DNA of 41,907 nucleotides, from the NCBI GenBank assembly GCA_002771475.1, contig PCTH01000028.1:1-41907 (forward strand), given 5' to 3'. Below, piece after piece: positions 3,814 through 31,660 of the stretch. The position numbers and the translations under genes were made by a program. Source of the stretch: Candidatus Omnitrophica bacterium CG22_combo_CG10-13_8_21_14_all_43_16 (lineage in GTDB: Bacteria > Omnitrophota > Gorgyraeia > Gorgyraeales > Gorgyraeaceae). Below the pieces are notes generated by a model, which ran no database searches, was not told the DNA's origin, and saw nothing but the letters and a program-made list of their open reading frames with translations. Position 1 is the stretch's first letter; every line of letters starts with the position of its first letter.

Positions 3814-3833
3814 ATTTTATCTTTACCCTTGAT

Positions 3834-3873
3834 ACACTTACGAAGTGTAATAAATATTGCGCTTCGTAAGTGT
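3834..3873. repeat. Intergenic double palindrome (REP-doublet-like), family B copy 1
   Basis: ACACTTACGAAGTGTAATA-AA-TATTGCGCTTCGTAAGTGT: 19-bp arms with 2 mismatches, each arm itself a mini-hairpin; related copy at 16531-16574. Confidence 0.75.
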
Positions 3874-3886
3874 CTATGGTTTAAAG

Positions 3887-4732
3887 TTATTGTTTAATAG
3901 CGGCGTTTAATGCCTTTCTCATGACCTCTACCACTTGTATCGGAATATTATCTCTTCCTGTCCACTTGCTCAGGGACAACACACCCTGATAAAGCAACAT
4001 ACCTAATCCATTTGAATAACTAGCGCCGGCAGCCTTTGCTAAAGATAATAATTTAGTTTCAGCAGGATTATATATAAGATCGTAAACAAATAAATCTTTA
4101 CGGATCATCTTTTTATCAATCAAGCAGGGGTCGCTTTCCTTCAACCCGATTGGCGTAGCGTTAATAAGCGCGTCTTTGGAAAGGATATTTAATTCTTCTA
4201 CGCTATTTGCGATTTTAACCGGCAGATTACTGAATAGTTCTTTCAGCATACTGGCAACGCCTGACGCTTTATCTTTATCTATATCAAAGATGCATATTTC
4301 CTGCGCACCTTTATTCGCCAGCTCATAACTAACTGCCCTGCTAGCACCTCCAGCTCCTAATATCGCGATCTTTTTGCCTCTGGGATCAAAGCCCAATACT
4401 TTTAAGTGCCTTGAAAACCCGTTTATATCAGTATTAAAACCTTTCCATGCTTTGCCCTGTCTGACTAAAGTATTGACTGCTTTTATCTGACGCAAATAAA
4501 AAGATTCTTGATCCAGCTGTATAAAATCCAGCACCTTTTCCTTGTGAGGAATCGTGACGTTTAATCCTTTTATACAAGAGTCTATGTCAGCGAAGAAATC
4601 CCCTAACCCTTCCGGCTTTATCTCAAAAGTTCGGTATTCCGCGTCGATGCCGAGCGCCTTAAAGGCGGCATTGTGCATCGCGGGCGATAAACTATGTTTT
4701 ATAGGCCAGCCGATTACACCGTATATATTCAT
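3887..4732 (-). CDS. aroE: Shikimate dehydrogenase
   Basis: HSLSPAMHN, GLNVTIPHK, AVNT, NTD, GAGGAS, NATPIG, DLIYNP, GMLLYQG. Confidence 0.96.
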   Translation of the reverse strand: MNIYGVIGWPIKHSLSPAMHNAAFKALGIDAEYRTFEIKPEGLGDFFADIDSCIKGLNVTIPHKEKVLDFIQLDQESFYLRQIKAVNTLVRQGKAWKGFNTDINGFSRHLKVLGFDPRGKKIAILGAGGASRAVSYELANKGAQEICIFDIDKDKASGVASMLKELFSNLPVKIANSVEELNILSKDALINATPIGLKESDPCLIDKKMIRKDLFVYDLIYNPAETKLLSLAKAAGASYSNGLGMLLYQGVLSLSKWTGRDNIPIQVVEVMRKALNAAIKQ

Positions 4733-12767: not shown

Positions 12768-13880
12768 CTATTTATATATTCTCGGAACCCTGCGGCCTAT
12801 ATTGCAAAGCACCTCGTAGGGTATGGTATTTATAAGCCTTGCCAGCTCTTCCGCCCTTATAATCTTATTACCCTGACTGCCTATCAAAATTACATCATCT
12901 CCGACCTTGACATTTTTTAAATGCCCTACATCTATCATGCACATGTCCATGCAGACCCTGCCTGCTATGGGGCAGCGGCTATTATTGATCAGAACCTCCG
13001 CCTTGTTTGAAAAATGCCTTGAATATCCGTCGCCGTAACCCACCGGTATCGTAGCTATTTTTGTGGGCTTTTCAGTGACATAAGTCATTCCGTAACTTAT
13101 ACTGCGGCCTTTCGGCACCAGTTTCAGATGAGTTATCTTTGTTTTTAAAGTAAGCGCGGGTTTTAAAAGTATATTTCTCATAAGGCTTTCTTTCGGGTAT
13201 ATGCCGTACATCATGAGGCCCGGCCTGACCATGTTCATGTGGCTGTCTTTAAAATCTATAAGGCCCATGCTGTTTGCCGTATGTTTTACGGGTATATCTA
13301 TGCCGTTATCCCACAGCTCTTCCATGAGACGCTTAAAATTCTTTATCTGATTGCATGTAAAAACCTTGTCTGATTCTGCGTCCGGAAAATGCGTAAAAAT
13401 GCCGTCTATAATAATATTTTTCAATTTCGCTATTTTCTTTACGAAACTCACTGCCTCTTCGTGCCAGAATCCCAGGCGTCCCATGCCTGTATCCACTTTT
13501 ATATGCACTTTTATTTTTTTATTCTTGGACAGGGCAAGCTTAGAAAGCCTCTTGGGGATATCCAGGTCCGAAACTGTCTGGATCGCATCAAATTTCAAAA
13601 CCCCTTCTATTTCTTCAGGCAGGATAGCGCCTACGACAAGTATGGGCTTTTTTATCCCGATACCGCGTAAGATAGCTGCTTCATCAAGAGACGCGACCCC
13701 GAAATAATCCACATAATCCACTATTGCCTTTGAGACTTCCTGCATACCGTGGCCATAAGCATCTGCTTTTACAACGCCCAGTATTTTCGTGTCGCTTTTC
13801 ACGATATGGCTGACTATCTCCAGATTATGGCGTATAGCGCCCAGATCTATCCCTGCTAATGTAGGACGGTAAAATCTCAT
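12768..13880 (-). CDS. alr: Alanine racemase
   Basis: VVKADAYGHG (PLP Lys), HIKVDTGMGRLG, HTANS, ISYG, GYGDGY, GRVCMD; start at ATG 13880 (ATGA overlap with tsaB stop). Confidence 0.97.
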   Translation of the reverse strand: MRFYRPTLAGIDLGAIRHNLEIVSHIVKSDTKILGVVKADAYGHGMQEVSKAIVDYVDYFGVASLDEAAILRGIGIKKPILVVGAILPEEIEGVLKFDAIQTVSDLDIPKRLSKLALSKNKKIKVHIKVDTGMGRLGFWHEEAVSFVKKIAKLKNIIIDGIFTHFPDAESDKVFTCNQIKNFKRLMEELWDNGIDIPVKHTANSMGLIDFKDSHMNMVRPGLMMYGIYPKESLMRNILLKPALTLKTKITHLKLVPKGRSISYGMTYVTEKPTKIATIPVGYGDGYSRHFSNKAEVLINNSRCPIAGRVCMDMCMIDVGHLKNVKVGDDVILIGSQGNKIIRAEELARLINTIPYEVLCNIGRRVPRIYK

Positions 13881-15889: not shown

Positions 15890-16889
15890 AAATGCCTTTT
15901 TCGGTTATTATGCCTGAGATCAGGCTGTGAGGAGTAACGTCAAACGCAGGATTATAAACCTTTGCGCGGATCGGCGCAATCTGCCTTGAACCCGCGTAAA
16001 TAATCTCTTCCGCCTTTCTTTCTTCAATAGGGATATCCTCGCCTGTTTTTATAAATTTATCTATAGTAGAACTTGGGGCTGCTACATAAAAAGGAATACC
16101 GTGGTGCCTTGCAAGCACAGCGAGCCCGTATGTGCCTATCTTATTGGCGGCGTCTCCGTTAGCGGCAATCCTGTCCGAGCCGACGATGATCTTCGTAACA
16201 CCTTTATTTTTTATGACGCTCGCCGCCATATTATCGCATATAAGAGTGGCGTCAATATTATTCCGCATCAGTTCCCACATAGTAAGACGCGACCCCTGCA
16301 TAAGCGGCCTTGTCTCATCAGCATAGACCTTGAAACGTTTACCCTGTTTTTTAGCTTCGTAGATTATTGAAAGGGCTGTGCCTTGTCCGGCTGTAGCCAG
16401 TATCCCGGCATTGCAATGCGTCAATATCACGTCTCCATTTTTTATCAGTTTCGCACCGTTTTTTCCGATTGCAATGCACATATTTTTGTCTTCTTCCAGG
16501 ATTTTCAATGCCTCTTTTAAAACAAACCTCTTACACTTCGTAAGTGTACAATTTTTTACGCTTACGAAGCGTAATAAGGCGCGCTCCATTCTATCAAGTG
16601 CCCAGAATAGGTTTACCGCAGTAGGCCTGGTGACCCTGAGTTTCTGAGAGGCTTTGGCCAGATCTTTTTTAAGGCCTGCCCATGAATTTTGTTTTGAATT
16701 AACAGCGGCCAACGCGTATCCCAGGGCAACAGCCACGCCTATCAAAGGAGCGCCTCTTATCCTGAGCTTCTTTATTGCCTCGCATAATATATCTACATCC
16801 TTGCAAGCTACATACTTTAGCTTCGCGGGCAGTTCTGTCTGGTCAATAAAAACTATTTTTCCGTCTTTCCACTTGATAGGTTCTATCAT
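15861..16889 (-). CDS. mtnA: S-methyl-5-thioribose-1-phosphate isomerase
   Basis: DQTELP, IRGAPLIG, RPTAVNL, THCNAG, ETRPLMQG, DRIAANGDAANKIGTY, NPAFDVTP. Confidence 0.95.
   Translation of the reverse strand: MIEPIKWKDGKIVFIDQTELPAKLKYVACKDVDILCEAIKKLRIRGAPLIGVAVALGYALAAVNSKQNSWAGLKKDLAKASQKLRVTRPTAVNLFWALDRMERALLRFVSVKNCTLTKCKRFVLKEALKILEEDKNMCIAIGKNGAKLIKNGDVILTHCNAGILATAGQGTALSIIYEAKKQGKRFKVYADETRPLMQGSRLTMWELMRNNIDATLICDNMAASVIKNKGVTKIIVGSDRIAANGDAANKIGTYGLAVLARHHGIPFYVAAPSSTIDKFIKTGEDIPIEERKAEEIIYAGSRQIAPIRAKVYNPAFDVTPHSLISGIITEKGIYEIKRFRGI
16531..16574. repeat. Double palindrome inside the mtnA coding sequence, family B copy 2
   Basis: TTACACTTCGTAAGTGTA-CAATTTTT-TACGCTTACGAAGCGTAA; the same units as 3834-3873. 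Confidence 0.75.
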
Positions 16890-17989
16890 AAACCAAACCC
16901 CTTTGCTAAAAAATTACGTTTTAATTCTACTGCCTTATGAGGACAAACCTCGTGGCAGCACATGCACTTGATACATTTTTTTAAATCTATAACCGACTTT
17001 CCGGGATTTATCGTTATAGCTGAAACAGGACAGCTGTCCCTGCATATCATGCATTTTTTGCAAAATTTTTCTTTTATGCGCGGCCCGAATTTTATAAACC
17101 CGGCCACAAATTTAGCAAAAGGCCCTAGGGCAGTTATTAACCCCGGTTTTCCCGGGATCTCAAAACCTTTTATCAAATTATCTTTTATGTTTTCCCCTGA
17201 TACTTCAATATTTTCCAGGCCTGCTTCTCCGAGCCTTCTTCCATACGCTTCCTTTGTAGTCAAGATGCCTAACGGTTCCACGCCTATTAGTCCGGCAAAA
17301 ACAGAGTCTACTGCCACGCTGTCAGTCCCGGCTATTAAAAGACCTGTATCTTTCAGCCTTCCTGAAGCAGGCCCTCCCTGATCCATGCTGACTATAGCGT
17401 CCATTAAAACCAGGCTGGGCTTTGCTATCTCAAATGTATCCACTAAAACCTTTGCGAATTCTTCAGGGCTTGGATATTTTTTATGAAGTTCGCTTTTATG
17501 AAGCCCTGCAACAGCGCCGTACATATTTTTAACCGCCCCTGTAAGGCCCATCAAGCTGTGGGTTTTCATTTTAGGAATATTTATAATCTTATCGCATTCA
17601 AAAATATATGCCGCTATCGGAATATTATTAACTACTTTTATGCCTTTCGCCTCTTTTAACTCTATGCCTTCTTCCTTTGCCAAAGCGCTCAGGCCTGCGC
17701 CTTCGTATACCGCCATGGAACTTATTGAGCCGCCGGGATTGTCGCCTATAAAAACTGTCGCGCCGCAGTCTCTGGCTAATCTAACAACAGCCCTTATCAC
17801 CTCCGGGTGTGTACATACCCCGTCTTCAGGCAGACGGGCTGAAAGCATATTAGGCTTAATAAGTACACGTTCACCTTTTTTTATAAAAGCGCTTATCCCT
17901 CCCAGAAGATCAAAAGCCTTTTTTACAGCCTGCTCAACTTCTGTCCTTTTGTAATTTTCACATTTTACAATCGCAACTCTGGTTTTCAT
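16886..17989 (-). CDS. DUF362-family protein with C-terminal 2x[4Fe-4S] ferredoxin domain
   Basis: VLIKPN, THPEV, GDNPG, INIPKMKTH, TGAVKNMYG, GTDSVAVD; two CxxCxxCxxxCP motifs at the C-terminus. Confidence 0.85.
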   Translation of the reverse strand: MKTRVAIVKCENYKRTEVEQAVKKAFDLLGGISAFIKKGERVLIKPNMLSARLPEDGVCTHPEVIRAVVRLARDCGATVFIGDNPGGSISSMAVYEGAGLSALAKEEGIELKEAKGIKVVNNIPIAAYIFECDKIINIPKMKTHSLMGLTGAVKNMYGAVAGLHKSELHKKYPSPEEFAKVLVDTFEIAKPSLVLMDAIVSMDQGGPASGRLKDTGLLIAGTDSVAVDSVFAGLIGVEPLGILTTKEAYGRRLGEAGLENIEVSGENIKDNLIKGFEIPGKPGLITALGPFAKFVAGFIKFGPRIKEKFCKKCMICRDSCPVSAITINPGKSVIDLKKCIKCMCCHEVCPHKAVELKRNFLAKGFGL

Positions 17990-18039
17990 TCTATTCTCTA
18001 TGTAATACTTTCAATGTCAGATAACACTAATTGCTCTTT

Positions 18040-18281
18040 GCCAGCCCTGGCAGGTTTTGAGAAAAGCCTCGCCGATTTGAGCGGGCACGGTGCCCCGCCT
18101 CCGGGCTGGGGCCATTCGGCGCTGAAATAACTTCGCCGTAATTCCTTGCGGACTTTTGCCGAAATTTTTCTAATGCGCCTCAAACCCCAGCCCGGAGGCG
18201 GGGCAAGCGAAAATCGGCGCGGAGCGAAGGACGTCTCGCTGGGACGTCCGAGCGTCTTTTCGAAAGCCTGCCAGGGCTGGC
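18040..18281. repeat. Nested palindromic element (MITE/REP-like or structured RNA), family A copy 1
   Basis: 15-bp perfect terminal IR (18040-18054 / 18267-18281), 21-bp perfect inner IR (18091-18111 / 18185-18205) and further stems; core homologous to 25193-25374. Confidence 0.85.
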
Positions 18282-18322
18282 TACTATGCAAAGCGTTACC
18301 TAACTATTCAAATAATACACTT

Positions 18323-19348
18323 TTAGCCCCGGATGAGCTCCTTTATAAAAAATACAAAACCCACAATAATTGAATTGTGAATTATATGCACGGCCATGGG
18401 CGCTACAAGAGACCCTGTTGTCTCATATAAAAACGCCATCAGGATGCCCAATATTATAATCGGCGCAAAGCCCGTTACGTTTGTATGCAGCATGCTGAAT
18501 AAAGCTGCGCTTAGCAGCACTCCGGACAGCACTCCAAACCGTTTTCTTACAGCGCTGTATAAAAATCCCCTGAAAAATATTTCCTCTATTATAGGCCCCA
18601 GGATTGCAACAAATACTGTTAAAAATAAAACCACATTGCTTCTTTTTTCTTCTAAAAACATATCAAATACAGGCTGAGCAGGAAATTTATATCCTATCGC
18701 GTTTAGAAACAGCATCGATAAGATAAGGACTGCTATTAAAATAGGCAATATAAACACATAAGCGGTAATCCCGGATAAAACATTTCTATAAAAACCCGCG
18801 GATGCGATGCCCAGGCTGGACAATTTCTCCCTGTATTTTACCATGACAAAATAAAATATCGTTATCCCGGCAATCACATCTATAGAAAATGTGCCCAGTA
18901 TCATGCCCAGATTAGGGTCAATATTAAAATGAAGCGGCTTTGAAACAATGCTTGTTAACGCCCCCAGCATATAGCCTGAGAAAACCGCTATAATAGCCGC
19001 CTTTAACACGTCCGCTATGCCCCATGGTACGGATATTTTATCCGGAACTTTTTCCGGGATTATCTTTTTCCTGCCAAAAAGAAAAAAAAGATTCATCGCC
19101 ATGCCTGCCAGGAGCATAAAAATCCCTGTAAATATTCCATATTTGAAAAGAACTGCGGCAGGCTTTTCCGATTCAAAGAATAACTTTATCTTTTCTTCCG
19201 TGACGCCCATATCCTGGAATGTCATGGAAGAAACGCTTTTTTTATCAGCCGTTTTTTTTCGGCTATATCCTATATTAAGCAGATTAATGCCTAATATAAA
19301 AATCAGCATCCAGATATACATGCGTTCTCTTTTGATAAATTCTAACAT
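18323..19348 (-). CDS. CPBP (CAAX/Abi) family intramembrane glutamic endopeptidase
   Basis: Multiple TM helices; PIIEEIFFRG, FSMLH, HIIHN motifs. Confidence 0.9.
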   Translation of the reverse strand: MLEFIKRERMYIWMLIFILGINLLNIGYSRKKTADKKSVSSMTFQDMGVTEEKIKLFFESEKPAAVLFKYGIFTGIFMLLAGMAMNLFFLFGRKKIIPEKVPDKISVPWGIADVLKAAIIAVFSGYMLGALTSIVSKPLHFNIDPNLGMILGTFSIDVIAGITIFYFVMVKYREKLSSLGIASAGFYRNVLSGITAYVFILPILIAVLILSMLFLNAIGYKFPAQPVFDMFLEEKRSNVVLFLTVFVAILGPIIEEIFFRGFLYSAVRKRFGVLSGVLLSAALFSMLHTNVTGFAPIIILGILMAFLYETTGSLVAPMAVHIIHNSIIVGFVFFIKELIRG

Positions 19349-20115
19349 TTAGGTAAGTTAAAAAGCCTGATGGCGTTTTCAGCAGTCACTGCCGCCACTT
19401 CGTTAAAATCAATCCCTTTTATCTTCGCAACCTCTTCTGCGGCATATTTCACATGCATGGGTTCATTGCGAGCGCCCCTGAAATCCTGAGGAGCCAGGTA
19501 CGGAGCATCTGTCTCAAGAAGCAGCCTGTCCATTGGAACTAATTTTACAATCTCCCTCAGCTTTCCGGCGTTTTTATATGTGATATTGCAGGTGAAAGAT
19601 ATAAAAAATCCCATATCCAGGCATGTCTTTAAAAATTTTTCGTCTCCTGAAAAGCAATGCATGACCCCGCTCAAAGAATTGCCCATGATATTTTTTAAAA
19701 TATCTATCATATCCTCGTGGGAATCGCGATTGTGTATTACCAGGGGCAGCTTCGCGCCTTTTGCGATCTCGAGAAGCCTGGCAAATAATCTCTTCTGATT
19801 CTCCATGGATGAGATATTTCTGTAATAATCAAGCCCGATCTCGCCTATTGCCACAACCTTGGGCTTTTTAAGAAATCCTTCGAAAATCCTAAAATCTCCC
19901 TCGCTTACTTTATCAGCTTCATGAGGATGGATCCCGATAGAGGCGTAAATAAATGCGTTTTCCCGGGCGATCTTTACAGACCTGGCTGTCCCCTCCAGGC
20001 TGGACCCGACATTTATAATAAACTTTACGCCGCTCGCAACGGAACGCTTTAAAACAGCTCCAAGGTCATCATTAAAATCCTTAAAATCCAGATGGCAATG
20101 AGTATCTATCAACAT
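19342..20115 (-). CDS. tatD: TatD family deoxyribonuclease
   Basis: DTHCH, GIHPH, AIGEIGLD, IHNRD, MHCF, ETDAPY. Confidence 0.94.
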   Translation of the reverse strand: MLIDTHCHLDFKDFNDDLGAVLKRSVASGVKFIINVGSSLEGTARSVKIARENAFIYASIGIHPHEADKVSEGDFRIFEGFLKKPKVVAIGEIGLDYYRNISSMENQKRLFARLLEIAKGAKLPLVIHNRDSHEDMIDILKNIMGNSLSGVMHCFSGDEKFLKTCLDMGFFISFTCNITYKNAGKLREIVKLVPMDRLLLETDAPYLAPQDFRGARNEPMHVKYAAEEVAKIKGIDFNEVAAVTAENAIRLFNLPKC

Positions 20116-24569: not shown

Positions 24570-25177
24570 ATTTTTAGAACTCTCTTTCTGATTTCTTCCT
24601 GGGCCAGGGTTATTTCGCCCCCGGAAGATACCACCCTGACTCTTTTAGGTTCTTTTTTTGCGATAGAAAGGTATCCGTTCCTTACCTTATTATGATAAAG
24701 AATGGATTTTCTTTCCATCCTGTCTTTGGACCTGCCTGTCCTTAAAAGCCCGGCCCTGGCGTCTATATCCAGCAAAAACGTAATATCAGGCTTCAGGCCT
24801 TTTGTAACGATGCCGGCTATATTTTCTATGACCTTCAAATCCATGCCTCCGGCATATCCCTGATAAGCAAGGGTGGCGTCGGTAAATCTGTCGCACACCA
24901 CTATCTTTCCCTGCGTAAGAGCGGGCAGGATTTTCTGCTTTACTATCTGGGCCCTGGCTGCCATGTATAAAAGCATCTCGCAAGAAACATCCATGCCTTT
25001 ATTTTTAGGATCCAGGAGGATCTTGCGTATTTTCTCGCTGATCAATGTGCCGCCTGGCTCGCGCGTATGTAAAACCTTATAGCCCTTCTTCCGCAAAAAT
25101 CCGCGCAGCAATCTGGAATGTGTGGTCTTACCGCTTCCTTCAGGGCCTTCAAATGTTATGAATATTCCATGTTTCAT
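24560..25177 (-). CDS. tmk: Thymidylate kinase
   Basis: FEGPEGSGKT, TREPGGT, CDRF, AYQG, PDITFLLD. Confidence 0.96.
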   Translation of the reverse strand: MKHGIFITFEGPEGSGKTTHSRLLRGFLRKKGYKVLHTREPGGTLISEKIRKILLDPKNKGMDVSCEMLLYMAARAQIVKQKILPALTQGKIVVCDRFTDATLAYQGYAGGMDLKVIENIAGIVTKGLKPDITFLLDIDARAGLLRTGRSKDRMERKSILYHNKVRNGYLSIAKKEPKRVRVVSSGGEITLAQEEIRKRVLKICR

Positions 25178-25192
25178 AGTTAATTTCTGTTT

Positions 25193-25374
25193 GGCAGGCT
25201 GGGACCGTTCGGCGCAGAGAGTGTTTCGCCGCGCGCTACGGTTTACGGCTCGTTTTTTATACTGAAGGTAGTCTTGACAGTATAAAAAACTTCGCCGTAA
25301 TCCCTTGCGCGCTTATATTCTAAAAAATCTATTATGCCGAAACCTCTCAAATGCGCCTCAGGTCCCAGCCTGCC
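25193..25374. repeat. Rod-like palindromic element, family A copy 2 (more complete core)
   Basis: 14-bp perfect terminal IR (25193-25206 / 25361-25374), 13-bp perfect inner IR (25252-25264 / 25278-25290), intermediate stems GCGCGC/GCGCGC and TTACGG/CCGTAA. Confidence 0.85.
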
Positions 25375-25392
25375 CAACCGCTATATAACTCT

Positions 25393-26847
25393 CTATATTT
25401 TCTTTTCCCAGACTGTTGTTCCGTCTTTTTTATCTTTTGGAACTAATCCTTTTTTTTCTAGCGCTTTTCTAACCTCATCAGCTGTCTTGAAATCTTTACT
25501 TTTCCTAGCTTCCTCTCGCCTTTTAACTAGTATTTTAATACTATCTGTTAAAGTACCATTATCCGTGTCTTTTACGCCAATATTCTGAATAACATCCACA
25601 TTCAGTAAAGACCCATCTAAAAATTCTTTTGATAAGCCTAAAGTCTTCCCCAAATCAATTAAACTTTCTTTCGCATACTCTAGATTTTCTCCACTTTCTA
25701 TACTTTTATTAATAAAAGATACCATTTCAAAAATAATACCTAGCGCTTGAGCTGTATTAAAATCATCGTCCATAACTTCTTCAAATTTAGAGCGATATTC
25801 GTCGACCAATTTATTGATATTTTTATTAGGCCTAGATTTTGTTTTTATATTTTTCAACTCATTCATTGATGTGCAAATACGCTTATACGCCTCTTTTGCT
25901 CCGTCCATCCTCTCCCACGAAAAATCCACGGGATGGGAATAGTGCGTCTGCAAAAATAATATTTTCAACGCGTCCGCCGGGTATTTGGCCAATATATCCT
26001 CTATGGTGATAAAATTACCGAGGCTCTTTGCCATCTTTTCTTTATTGATGGTCAAAAGGCCGTTGTGCATCCAGCAGCGCGCGAATTTATTGCCCGCGCC
26101 TTCTGACTGCGCAATCTCGTTCTCATGATGAGGAAATATAAGATCTATGCCTCCTCCGTGTATATCAAATTCGCCTCCCAATATATCAGAGCTCATAACA
26201 GAGCATTCTATATGCCATCCTGGCCTGCCGTTTCCCCACGGGCTTTGCCATGAAGACTCGCCCTCTTTTGCGGATTTCCATAAAGCGAAATCCAGAGGGT
26301 CTTTTTTATTCTCCCCCGGGGCTATCCTGGCGCCCGATTCCAGCATCTCAAAACTCTGGTTGGATAATTTCCCGTAACCATTAGCCTTACGCACATCAAA
26401 ATACACATCACCGCCTGACGCGTAAGCCACTTTGCGCTCAATCAGTATTTTTATAAAATCTATCATCTTTCCTATGTACTCTGTTGCCTTCGGCTCTTTA
26501 TCGGGAGGCATAATCCCCAGCCTCTCCATGTATTCGTGGTAAACTTTAAGGTATTTGTCCGAAACCTTTTTCACGGCGATGGTTAAATCCTCACCCTTAA
26601 ATTCTTCTTTTGCCTTATTGATTATTTTGTCGTCTACGTCCGTAACATTTCTGGCAAATTTTACTTCATAACCTTTGTACCTAAAATAACGCCGTACTAC
26701 GTCAAACGCATAAGCGCTTCTCGCGTGCCCTATATGCGGGACATCGTAAACAGTGGGCCCGCAGACATACATGCTGATACACCCTTCCTTGATCGGCTTG
26801 AATTCTTCTTTTTTTCTTGTAAGCGTATTGTATATTTTCATGCTCAT
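25393..26847 (-). CDS. cysS: Cysteine--tRNA ligase
   Basis: YVCGPTVY, HIGH, NVTDVDDKI, DFALWK, GRPGWHIECS, DIHGGG, FPHHENE, KMAKS, DDDFNT; start ATG 26847 (ATGA overlap) or 26841. Confidence 0.97.
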   Translation of the reverse strand: MSMKIYNTLTRKKEEFKPIKEGCISMYVCGPTVYDVPHIGHARSAYAFDVVRRYFRYKGYEVKFARNVTDVDDKIINKAKEEFKGEDLTIAVKKVSDKYLKVYHEYMERLGIMPPDKEPKATEYIGKMIDFIKILIERKVAYASGGDVYFDVRKANGYGKLSNQSFEMLESGARIAPGENKKDPLDFALWKSAKEGESSWQSPWGNGRPGWHIECSVMSSDILGGEFDIHGGGIDLIFPHHENEIAQSEGAGNKFARCWMHNGLLTINKEKMAKSLGNFITIEDILAKYPADALKILFLQTHYSHPVDFSWERMDGAKEAYKRICTSMNELKNIKTKSRPNKNINKLVDEYRSKFEEVMDDDFNTAQALGIIFEMVSFINKSIESGENLEYAKESLIDLGKTLGLSKEFLDGSLLNVDVIQNIGVKDTDNGTLTDSIKILVKRREEARKSKDFKTADEVRKALEKKGLVPKDKKDGTTVWEKKI

Positions 26848-31592: not shown

Positions 31593-31606
31593 AACTCACC
31601 TTCTTT

Positions 31607-31660
31607 ATACATTCGCCCCGATAAATCGGGGCTCAGTATTCCGCCCAAGGAACCTTGGGC
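31607..31660. repeat. Two tandem hairpins between ruvA and ruvB; the first is a minimal family A unit
   Basis: ATAC-A-TTCG-CCCCGAT-AA-ATCGGGG-CTCA-GTAT followed by GCCCAAGG-AA-CCTTGGGC. Confidence 0.7.

What the first reader, a model, noticed from the sequence alone, without database searches (positions are those of the whole stretch)
18040..18281. 242-bp Russian-doll palindrome: a family A core nested inside a second, oppositely oriented shell
Seen: outer 15-bp perfect IR GCCAGCCCTGGCAGG, then GAAAAG/CTTTTC, CGCCGATT-TGAG...CGAA-AATCGGCG, a side hairpin CGAA-GGACGTC...GACGTCC-GAG, and a 21-bp perfect inner IR enclosing TTCG-GCGC...GCGC-CTCA. The shell carries the TGAG/CGAA motif on the + strand and the core carries it on the - strand. 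It is GC-rich in AT-rich flanks, with no obvious target-site duplication. Inference: successive insertion of one element into another, pointing to DNA-level mobility rather than a single-stranded functional RNA.
Basis: partly seen in the sequence, partly recalled or inferred. Interest (0 to 1): 0.75.

Follow-up and report, generated by a model that had tools for sequence, protein, structure and literature searches.

The report
Nested palindromic mobile repeat, Omnitrophota
This is a small non-coding palindromic repeat with a second such repeat sitting inside it, dropped between two genes of an uncultivated Omnitrophota bacterium; it is a new family of a familiar kind of selfish bacterial DNA.

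Summary
The element is larger than reported. AT-rich arms extend the palindrome to about 18001-18319, filling the 333-nt CPBP-DUF362 spacer. The host is a Candidatus Omnitrophota chromosome. In two of three related genomes the same junction is 14 nt (L004) and 7 nt (L001), so the element is a DNA-level gain. The core ("family A") recurs without a shell at 25189-25378 (cysS-tmk), and half-decayed at that junction in L001. Here it is a short, internally deleted variant. Translated ORFs over the element matched 21 metagenomic or MAG ORFs. Among the 16 that carry the shell, 9 clearly and 2 probably have family A inside, and 4 clearly and 1 probably have none. One further ORF has the core in the opposite relative orientation. 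There is no Rfam match, terminator or transposase gene. Best reading: two related, non-autonomous palindromic mobile elements (REPIN/MITE-like), one nested in the tip of the other. The mobilising enzyme is unknown; I infer an HUH/Y1 single-strand route. An RNA role is not excluded. It is a new member of a known kind, of moderate interest.

The parts
18001..18039 (.). AT-rich outer left arm of the palindrome (GC 0.28)
   Evidence: It pairs with 18286-18319 (score 29 against shuffles 19.0+/-3.9, 9 of 500 as high). It is conserved in P0005 and P0012, which map to window 18002-18070 on the + strand at E 0.004 and 0.034.
18040..18102 (+). Shell, left half: outer GC-rich IR arm 18040-18054, GAAAAG 18061-18066, CGCCGATT 18070-18077, TGAG 18078-18081, and apical stem arm 18091-18102. 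The boundary between shell and core is uncertain.
   Evidence: The empty-shell ORFs P0016 and P0019 align to window 18110-18057 and 18109-18056, that is, into the outer part of the 21-nt IR.
18103..18193 (-). Family A core, a short and internally deleted variant. On the - strand it reads stem, UGAG, GCGC ... GCGC, CGAA, U, stem, with a GCAA-capped stem-loop at the tip.
   Evidence: In alignment with copy 2 and L001 it lacks about 66 nt and about 19 nt.
18194..18281 (+). Shell, right half: apical stem arm 18194-18205, CGAA 18208-18211, AATCGGCG 18212-18219, side hairpin 18225-18252 (GC-GAA-GGACGTC ... GGACGTCC-GA-GC), CTTTTC 18256-18261, outer IR arm 18267-18281.
   Evidence: Sixteen of the 21 related ORFs map to window 18279-18200.
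18282..18319 (.). AT-rich outer right arm (GC 0.29). It ends 3 nt from the CPBP stop codon.
   Evidence: P0004, P0005, P0008, P0010 and P0018 align from window 18315-18324 inward.
17990..18322 (-). The whole CPBP-DUF362 intergenic spacer (333 nt). Only 3 + 11 = 14 nt of it lie outside the element.
   Evidence: ORFs are and Pfam matches. The same spacer is 14 nt in L004, 7 nt in L001, and 159 nt of unrelated sequence in L002.
25189..25378 (-). A full-length family A copy without a shell, lying between cysS and tmk. It starts 14 nt after the cysS stop and ends 11 nt before the tmk ATG.
   Evidence: Its left half is present at the same junction in L001 at about 2865-2948.
31605..31660 (-). A small related 'platform' element in the ruvA-ruvB spacer: AAUAC-UGAG-hairpin-CGAA-U-GUAU.
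   Evidence: A 24-nt stretch is identical to L004 2459-2482 (24 of 24), while the inner hairpin differs.

Best explanation
The 242-bp palindrome is the GC-rich middle of a roughly 320-bp, three-layer, non-coding palindromic element (about 18001-18319). It fills the spacer between a CPBP/Rce1-like protease gene and a DUF362-ferredoxin gene on a Candidatus Omnitrophota chromosome.

It is a composite of two related, non-autonomous mobile palindromic repeats. The outer 'shell' has its GA-type internal loops on the + strand. The inner 'family A' unit has the same loop types on the - strand and sits in the tip of the shell's hairpin. Here the inner unit is a short, internally deleted variant.

Shown: the element is a DNA-level presence/absence difference between related genomes. 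Shell and core exist apart, together, in tandem and in both relative orientations. A related unit is inserted in frame inside a gene in a relative.

Inferred: the units are moved in trans, most likely as folded single strands by an HUH/Y1 transposase of the IS200/IS605-RAYT type. That would make them REPIN-like, with hairpin tips and neighbouring hairpins as preferred landing sites. I give this route about 0.35 and a DDE-type MITE route about 0.2. The composite probably formed before it reached this locus. Only insertions between the stop codon and the ribosome-binding site survive in this compact genome, which would explain why all three window elements end 11-12 nt before the next ATG. The large hairpin that results in the operon mRNA is probably a by-product.
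For: 1. Host and empty sites. A related-loci scan with the DUF362 protein returned 4 loci from 3 Omnitrophota MAGs among 9 loci. The CPBP-DUF362 spacer is 14 nt in L004, whose DNA is about 86-90% identical to the window. It is 7 nt in L001. In L002 it is 159 nt of sequence no more similar to the window's spacer than shuffles. In the window it is 333 nt.

2. Repeated family. A second family A copy lies at 25189-25378. Its left half is at the same junction in L001, where the right half is replaced by an unrelated 19-nt perfect IR.

3. Relatives elsewhere. Translated ORFs over the element matched 21 related ORFs (sequences in 43, 48, 51, 54; mapped by tblastn). Sixteen carry the shell's 5' half. 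Nine of those continue directly into family A (P0002, 4, 5, 6, 9, 12, 13, 18, 21). Two are cut off just as family A starts (P0003, P0010). Four close the shell after 7-12 residues (P0008, 16, 19, 22), and one probably does (P0014). Core-only ORFs are P0007, P0015, P0017 and P0020. P0023 has the other shell arm (window 18050-18091 on the + strand, 14 aa, E 0.02) in front of family A. NCBI names P0019 and P0023 as hypothetical proteins of one Candidatus Omnitrophica MAG, and the table lists them with different longest-contig lengths.

4. Not coding. The window carries in-frame stops where relatives read through, and homologous stretches sit in different frames in different ORFs.

5. Shared strand-specific motif. 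Exact matches to helix-TGAG-helix...helix-CGAA-(0-1 nt)-helix number 3 in 84.5 kb, against 0.11 expected, and 0 of 300 shuffles reach 3. The copy-1 core and the shell carry the motif as well.

6. A related unit in L004 is a 102-nt, 34-codon in-frame insertion in the CPBP gene.

7. No flanking duplication. The non-element spacer is 3+11 = 14 nt, the same length as L004's whole spacer.

8. The element folds as ssDNA: -97.6 (-) and -89.4 (+) kcal/mol, z about -10.5.

9. No Rfam family and no terminator-like site.

10. [quoted passage not shown]
Against: No transposase of any kind turned up. The 43 window ORFs and 3 L003 ORFs scanned against Pfam gave no transposase match, and the named matches are ordinary cellular genes. 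This covers only 42 kb of one genome.

Only three DNA copies of family A and one of the shell could be read. All other copies are known only as translations, so insertion sites, ends and base-pair covariation could not be examined.

No target-site duplication or conserved target sequence was found, so neither the Y1 nor the DDE route has direct support.

Nine clear and two probable cases among 16 shells hold the core at the same place. One ancient composite inherited or spread as a unit would explain that as well as repeated insertion does.

The - strand, which is the sense strand of every gene in the window, folds better: -175.3 against -161.7 kcal/mol with 8 against 3 G-U pairs for 17996-18324, -80.4 against -70.3 for the core, and -105.9 against -99.8 for copy 2. 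Family A, the ruvA-ruvB unit and the L004 unit all carry the GA motif on the gene-sense strand. This fits an RNA-level role. It also fits an ssDNA role on the lagging-strand template, or strand-biased C-to-T mutation.

The peptides at the tips of the empty shells can be encoded by a perfect 12-bp hairpin, but that test is not significant on its own (117-207 of 1000 shuffles reach it).

A relaxed motif scan found 2 hits against 0.93 expected.
Confidence: 0.6

Rival explanations
1. It is a functional structured RNA element within the operon transcript (- strand). It would be an intercistronic hairpin whose tandem G-A internal loops bind a protein or direct processing or stability, tuning expression of the downstream DUF362 gene. 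DNA mobility would only be its means of spread.
For: Family A (both window copies), the ruvA-ruvB unit and the L004 unit all carry UGAG/CGAA on the gene-sense strand. The - strand folds are 6-14 kcal/mol more stable and have more G-U pairs. All three window elements end 11-12 nt before the next start codon. In the ruvA-ruvB and L004 units the conserved internal loop carries different apical hairpins, which is typical of RNA motifs (the last point is recalled, not from a call).
Against: The element is absent from the same junction in L004 and L001. The L001 copy at the cysS-tmk junction has lost its right half with no compensating change. The shell's motifs are on the antisense strand, and P0023 shows the opposite relative orientation. 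A related unit sits inside an ORF. There is no Rfam match. The three mismatches inside copy 2's helices are T-C, T-T and C-C on the + strand, not wobble pairs. The G-U excess on the - strand could also come from strand-biased mutation on the G-rich strand (GC skew is negative throughout).
Confidence: 0.15
2. It is a classical MITE: an internally deleted derivative of a DDE-transposase insertion sequence, moved by cut-and-paste through its terminal inverted repeats.
For: It has terminal inverted repeats, a size of about 320 bp, no coding capacity, an intergenic position and presence/absence between relatives.
Against: No target-site duplication is visible, and the residual spacer has the same length as the empty spacer in L004. 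The whole length is palindromic rather than only the ends. No parent IS or DDE transposase was seen in the window. None of this is decisive, because the ends are known only to within about 5 nt.
Confidence: 0.2
3. It is a locally generated palindrome, made by fold-back or template-switch replication errors at this spacer, and not a member of a dispersed family.
For: The arms are perfect over 15 and 21 nt.
Against: Homologous units lie elsewhere in the same window, in L001 and in 21 ORFs from other contigs.
Confidence: 0.03
4. It is a small protein-coding gene: the 97-codon ORF at 17998-18291 on the - strand. Public sources do list similar 'hypothetical proteins'.
For: An ORF spans the element. 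Four of the related ORFs carry a source's 'hypothetical protein' label.
Against: Relatives match in shifting frames, and the window has in-frame stops (for example the window reads a stop where P0002 and P0004 read L). Conservation follows the DNA palindrome. No Pfam domain is precomputed for any hit.
Confidence: 0.02

Closest known systems
REPINs / REP-BIME elements mobilised by RAYTs (PMC3116915 and PMC3337134; passages read)
   Same: Both are non-coding, extragenic, whole-length hairpin-forming palindromes built from inverted units. Compensatory changes keep the hairpin. There is no obvious flanking duplication. Clusters form by insertion into or next to existing elements. Copies decay to half-elements, as in L001.
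   Different: This element is about 190-320 nt, whereas the GI and GII doublets in that paper have unit spacings of 71 and 110 bp (passage). No RAYT was seen. The conserved foot motif is TGAG...CGAA rather than the GTAG recalled for REPs (recalled, not from a call). Here the units are nested in three layers rather than arranged in tandem. The host phylum is Omnitrophota. Copy number per genome is unknown.
Bacterial MITEs (review PMC10969869; passages read)
   Same: The size range, terminal inverted repeats, lack of coding capacity, intergenic position and presence/absence between strains all match.
   Different: No target-site duplication and no parent IS were found, and the palindromy runs through the whole element.
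Rickettsia palindromic elements (RPEs), as described in PMC10969869
   Same: A related unit in L004 is inserted in frame in a housekeeping gene and adds 34 residues. A palindromic patch also sits in frame in MtnA.
   Different: The element under study is intergenic. There is no sequence relation, and the host is not an obligate intracellular bacterium as far as is known.
IS200/IS605-family ends and their miniature derivatives (recalled; reference entries for Barabas 2008 and Ton-Hoang 2010 seen)
   Same: Both have hairpin-shaped ends with a short conserved sequence at the hairpin foot, strand-specific activity, no terminal duplication, and a link to the lagging-strand template. Here the family A motif strand is the G-rich, gene-sense strand.
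   Different: Those elements carry two separate subterminal hairpins rather than one whole-length palindrome. No tnpA gene, cleavage site or target tetranucleotide was identified here.

Membership tests
REPIN (RAYT-mobilised REP doublet) | Two inverted units plus a spacer that fold into one long hairpin in ssDNA or mRNA | tested here: met
   The whole-length palindrome folds at z about -10 as RNA and as DNA on both strands.
REPIN (RAYT-mobilised REP doublet) | A cognate single-copy RAYT (HUH/Y1) gene in the genome, flanked by the same repeats | not testable with these tools
   No transposase match among the 43 window ORFs and 3 L003 ORFs scanned. The rest of the genome is not available.
REPIN (RAYT-mobilised REP doublet) | Tens to hundreds of copies per genome, in extragenic space | tested here: inconclusive
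   There are 2 family A copies, 1 shell and 1 small related unit in 42 kb, all extragenic. At least 2 shell copies occur in one other MAG. Whole-genome counts are not possible.
REPIN (RAYT-mobilised REP doublet) | Conserved GTAG tetranucleotide at the 5' foot of the REP hairpin (feature recalled, not from a call) | tested here: not met
   The recurrent foot motif is TGAG...CGAA. A single GTAG abuts the outer stem on the - strand at 18285-18282. The residues before the outer stem in P0002 and P0004 (NNQ, NSQ) cannot encode it.
MITE (DDE-transposon derivative) | Terminal inverted repeats | tested here: met
MITE (DDE-transposon derivative) | Target-site duplication flanking the element | tested here: not met
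   No direct repeat flanks the ends. The residual spacer of 3+11 nt equals L004's 14-nt spacer. The ends are known only to about +/-5 nt.
MITE (DDE-transposon derivative) | A full-length parent IS with the same ends | not testable with these tools
   None is present in the window or loci. There was no match in plasmids or phages.
Any Rfam RNA family | A covariance-model score at or above the gathering threshold | tested here: not met
   There were 0 matches over the whole window. At E<=10 the only matches were sub-threshold chance hits, to miRNA-precursor and other unrelated families.
Intrinsic terminator | A GC-rich hairpin followed by a T/U run | tested here: not met
   There were 0 terminator-like sites in 17900-18420 and in 25100-25480.
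RPE-like in-frame palindromic insertion | Insertion inside an ORF that keeps the reading frame | tested here: not met
   This element is intergenic. The feature is met only by the related L004 unit.

The most novel reading that the evidence does not exclude
The recurring strand-specific module is a helix, then U-GA-G / C-GA-A (tandem G-A, often with a 1-nt bulge), then an interchangeable apical hairpin. It could be the recognition platform of an undescribed hairpin-tip-targeting mobility system in Omnitrophota. In that system whole hairpin cassettes would be inserted into, or swapped at, the tip of an existing hairpin, building Russian-doll elements in either orientation and occasionally in frame inside genes. 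Alternatively, the module could be a protein-binding RNA motif that is spread through operons by mobile DNA.
Probability: 0.15. Interest if true: 0.65.

Novelty: new member of a known kind. Interest (0 to 1): 0.35.

Why it matters
The finding documents a family of nested palindromic repeats in Omnitrophota, an uncultivated phylum. My full-text searches found no description of such repeats there: one search found 10 papers (9 listed) and the 8 papers listed included none on the subject. The elements create length differences between close relatives at gene junctions and even inside genes. This matters for MAG assembly (several related ORFs lie on contigs of only a few hundred bases), for gene calling (public sets list spurious 'hypothetical proteins' over the element), and for strain typing. 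If the conserved GA platform proves to be a recognition site, it would offer a way to find the enzyme that moves such elements in this phylum.

Tried and rejected
- Rfam gave nothing at gathering over the window. Permissive scans of the three element regions gave only sub-threshold hits to miRNA-precursor and other unrelated families.
- Promoter and terminator scans found no terminator. They found one weak promoter-like match, CTGACA-16-GAGAAT, at 18020-17993 on the - strand, ending 3 nt before the ATG. I judged it uninformative.
- blastn of the 319-nt element against plasmids and phages found no match.
- blastn-short of both elements against the window and loci found no copies beyond those reported.
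- L002's 159-nt spacer, compared with the window's spacer, scored 19 and 18 against shuffles at 16.8 +/- 2.5, so it is unrelated.
- A relaxed motif scan (6-bp outer helix with one mismatch, G-T allowed) found 2 hits against 0.93 expected, which is not informative. The strict scan was informative.
- The codon test for a hidden hairpin at the tips of the empty shells found the longest compatible run at the tip in P0019, P0022 and P0008, but 117-207 of 1000 shuffles reach it. P0014 and P0016 show nothing.
- P0011 (989 aa, 28% identity, E 3.7e-4) was dropped as a chance match and not examined.
- A hammerhead or K-turn reading of the UGAG/CGAA motif was considered from memory and rejected. The motif lacks the rest of the hammerhead core and the 3-nt bulge of a K-turn, and no tool supports either.
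- Whether P0003 lies at the same CPBP-downstream locus stays unresolved. Its tblastn match runs into the CPBP 3' end (window 18381-18202), but identity there is weak.
- Paper searches for Omnitrophota repeats and for nested bacterial MITEs returned nothing relevant.

Full report

- The outer inverted repeat is 15 nt perfect, or 19 nt at 95% (18040-18058 / 18263-18281). The inner one is 21 nt perfect (18091-18111 / 18185-18205).
- The intermediate pairings GAAAAG/CTTTTC and CGCCGATT-TGAG ... CGAA-AATCGGCG are all present. So are the side hairpin at 18225-18252 and the inner TTCG-GCGC ... GCGC-CTCA.
- Both strands fold far better than shuffles: -154.6 and -151.0 kcal/mol, z -9.8 and -10.8, 0 of 200 shuffles as good.
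- GC is 0.62, against 0.28-0.29 in the immediate flanks and 0.44 for the window.

**True extent.** The AT-rich flanks are part of the palindrome. 18001-18035 pairs with 18286-18319, scoring 29 against 19.0 +/- 3.9 for shuffles, with 9 of 500 as high. These arms are also conserved in translated relatives. The element therefore spans about 18001-18319 and fills the 333-nt spacer 17990-18322. Only 3 nt remain after the upstream stop codon and 11 nt before the downstream ATG.

**Context.** Every annotated gene in the window lies on the - strand and is an ordinary cellular gene; the named ones are housekeeping genes. The element sits between a CPBP/Rce1-like gene (18323-19348) and a DUF362 plus 4Fe-4S gene (16886-17989). 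GC skew is negative throughout, so the - strand is the G-rich strand. No transposase was found among the 43 window ORFs or 3 L003 ORFs scanned.

**Relatives and empty sites.** Four of them come from three Candidatus Omnitrophota MAGs, with 78-89% protein identity. DNA identity to the window is about 86-90% for L003/L004, 79-84% for L001 and 75-84% for L002.

| Source | CPBP-DUF362 spacer |
|---|---|
| Window | 333 nt |
| L004 | 14 nt |
| L001 | 7 nt |
| L002 | 159 nt, no more similar to the window's spacer than shuffles |

The element is thus a DNA-level difference between close relatives. A gain in the window's lineage needs fewer events than two precise losses. The 14 nt of non-element spacer in the window match the length of L004's whole spacer, and no flanking direct repeat is visible.

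**The core is a repeated unit.** A second copy lies at 25189-25378 between cysS and tmk. It has the same orientation and no shell. It folds at z -10.7 and -11.6.

- Alignment shows that the core inside the finding lacks about 66 nt (the left half of the inner helices plus an apical hairpin) and about 19 nt of a right-hand loop. It is an internally deleted variant.
- L001 carries the left half of this unit at the same cysS-tmk junction, at 91-96% identity over 28-45 nt. Its right half is replaced by an unrelated 19-nt perfect inverted repeat. That copy predates the split of the two genomes and is decaying in L001 with no compensating change.

**Shell and core in other sequences.** No further DNA scan was possible, so I searched the protein collections with the 97-codon ORF that lies over the element. 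I then searched with a hit, and then with an alignment of hits. This gave 21 related ORFs; P0011 was dropped as a chance match. A tblastn map onto the window sorts them as follows.

| Class | ORFs |
|---|---|
| Shell 5' half running straight into family A (9) | P0002, 4, 5, 6, 9, 12, 13, 18, 21 |
| Shell 5' half, cut off as family A begins (2) | P0003, P0010 |
| Shell closed after 7-12 residues, then the shell 3' half (4) | P0008, 16, 19, 22 |
| Shell probably closed (1) | P0014 |
| Family A behind other sequence (4) | P0007, 15, 17, 20 |
| Family A behind the other shell arm (1) | P0023 |

- P0009 and P0012 carry an extra layer of about 22 residues between shell and core.
- In P0008 a family A unit follows the closed shell in tandem.
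- P0023 has the opposite relative orientation to the window, although this rests on a 14-residue match at E 0.02.
- P0004 and P0006 share a flank and shell that differ at one residue but hold the long and the short core variant respectively.
- NCBI names P0019 and P0023 as hypothetical proteins of one Omnitrophica MAG.
- These ORFs are not genes. Homologous stretches appear in different frames in different ORFs, and the window has in-frame stops where relatives read through.

**A shared strand-specific motif.** On one strand, each unit has a helix interrupted by U-GA-G opposite C-GA-A, often with a 1-nt bulge. Each also has a second loop, GC-GAA-G opposite C-GA-GC.

- A strict scan of the 84.5 kb of Omnitrophota DNA in hand found 3 instances against 0.11 expected, and 0 of 300 shuffles reach 3. 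The core of the finding and the shell escape the strict rule only through wobble pairs or a 1-bp inner helix.
- Two of the three hits are new units: one in the ruvA-ruvB spacer (31605-31660) and one in L004.
- Those two share 24 of 24 nt before the motif, and the same bases after it, but carry different apical hairpins.
- The L004 unit is a 102-nt in-frame insertion that adds 34 residues to the CPBP protein.

**What it most likely is.** It is a composite of two related, non-autonomous palindromic mobile elements, one sitting in the tip of the other.

- Shown: DNA-level presence/absence; a dispersed family; separate, nested, tandem and inverted arrangements (the empty-shell, tandem and inverted cases known only from translated ORFs); and no match to any known RNA family or terminator.
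- Inferred: the mode of movement. Several features resemble REPINs and IS200/IS605-type single-strand transposition. These are whole-length hairpins that are stable as ssDNA (-97.6 and -89.4 kcal/mol), a conserved strand-specific motif at hairpin feet, no flanking duplication, and insertion into or beside other hairpins. [quoted passage not shown]
- No such enzyme gene was seen, so I give this route about 0.35 and a DDE-type MITE route about 0.2.

**The RNA rival.** The - strand is the sense strand, and it folds better: -175.3 against -161.7 kcal/mol with 8 against 3 G-U pairs over 17996-18324. Most units carry the motif on that strand. All three window elements stop 11-12 nt before the next ATG.

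Several points count against a required RNA role:

- The element is absent in L004 and L001.
- The L001 copy is an uncompensated half-element.
- The shell's motifs are antisense.
- P0023 has the inverted arrangement.
- The L004 unit sits inside a gene.

The placement is also what selection would leave in a genome whose spacers are 7-14 nt. The G-U excess could come from strand-biased mutation. I give this rival 0.15.

**Limits.**

- Only three family A copies and one shell could be read as DNA.
- Paper supplements were not consulted.
- Of the papers, I read only passages of PMC3116915, PMC3337134 and PMC10969869. The others were seen as search listings only.
- The GTAG rule for REPs, the properties of IS200/IS605 and the RNA-motif comparisons are recalled, not tested.

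Noticed in passing
L004 2434-2535 (+ strand of locus): A 102-nt palindromic unit is inserted in frame in the CPBP gene, adding 34 residues that are absent from the window and L001 proteins. It shares 24 of 24 nt with the window's ruvA-ruvB spacer unit.
   Followed up: yes
window 31605-31660 (- strand): A small two-hairpin unit in the ruvA-ruvB spacer carries the AAUAC-UGAG-hairpin-CGAA-U-GUAU platform and ends 12 nt before the ruvB ATG.
   Followed up: partly
window 16531-16576; L001 11406-11509: The MtnA (IF-2B family) gene has a hypervariable in-frame patch at residues of about 103-120. It is encoded by palindromic DNA that differs in sequence and length between the window, L001, L003 and L002. 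The window's palindromes (TTACACTTCGTAAGTGTA type) recur at 3818-3889.
   Followed up: partly
L001 16820-16957, 11406-11509, 8828-8986: L001 has its own palindromic repeat family (shared TCGCTCGAAGAATAT and GAGTCGAGAA stretches). It occurs at three places, two at gene junctions and one in the MtnA patch, where the window has short sequences of 40-52 nt.
   Followed up: no
L001 about 2775-2835 (cysS-tmk junction): An unrelated 19-nt perfect inverted repeat (GGGACAGCGACCATTTTTT / its complement) replaces the right half of family A.
   Followed up: no
L002 6043-6114; L004 1953-2150: Further lineage-specific palindromic insertions lie at junctions that are only 5 nt (window 12770-12775) and about 50 nt (window 19342-19394) in the window.
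   Followed up: no
L002 1985-2587: The MtnA ORF in L002 stops after 200 codons and a second ORF follows (2562-2930). This may be a frameshift or an assembly error.
   Followed up: no
window 18020-17993 (- strand): A promoter-like match, CTGACA-16-GAGAAT, lies inside the AT-rich arm and points at the DUF362 gene. L002's unrelated spacer also contains CTGACATTG.
   Followed up: partly
window 1-41907: All major ORFs but one (1410-2000, +, no Pfam match) lie on the - strand. GC skew is negative in every 300-nt bin.
   Followed up: no
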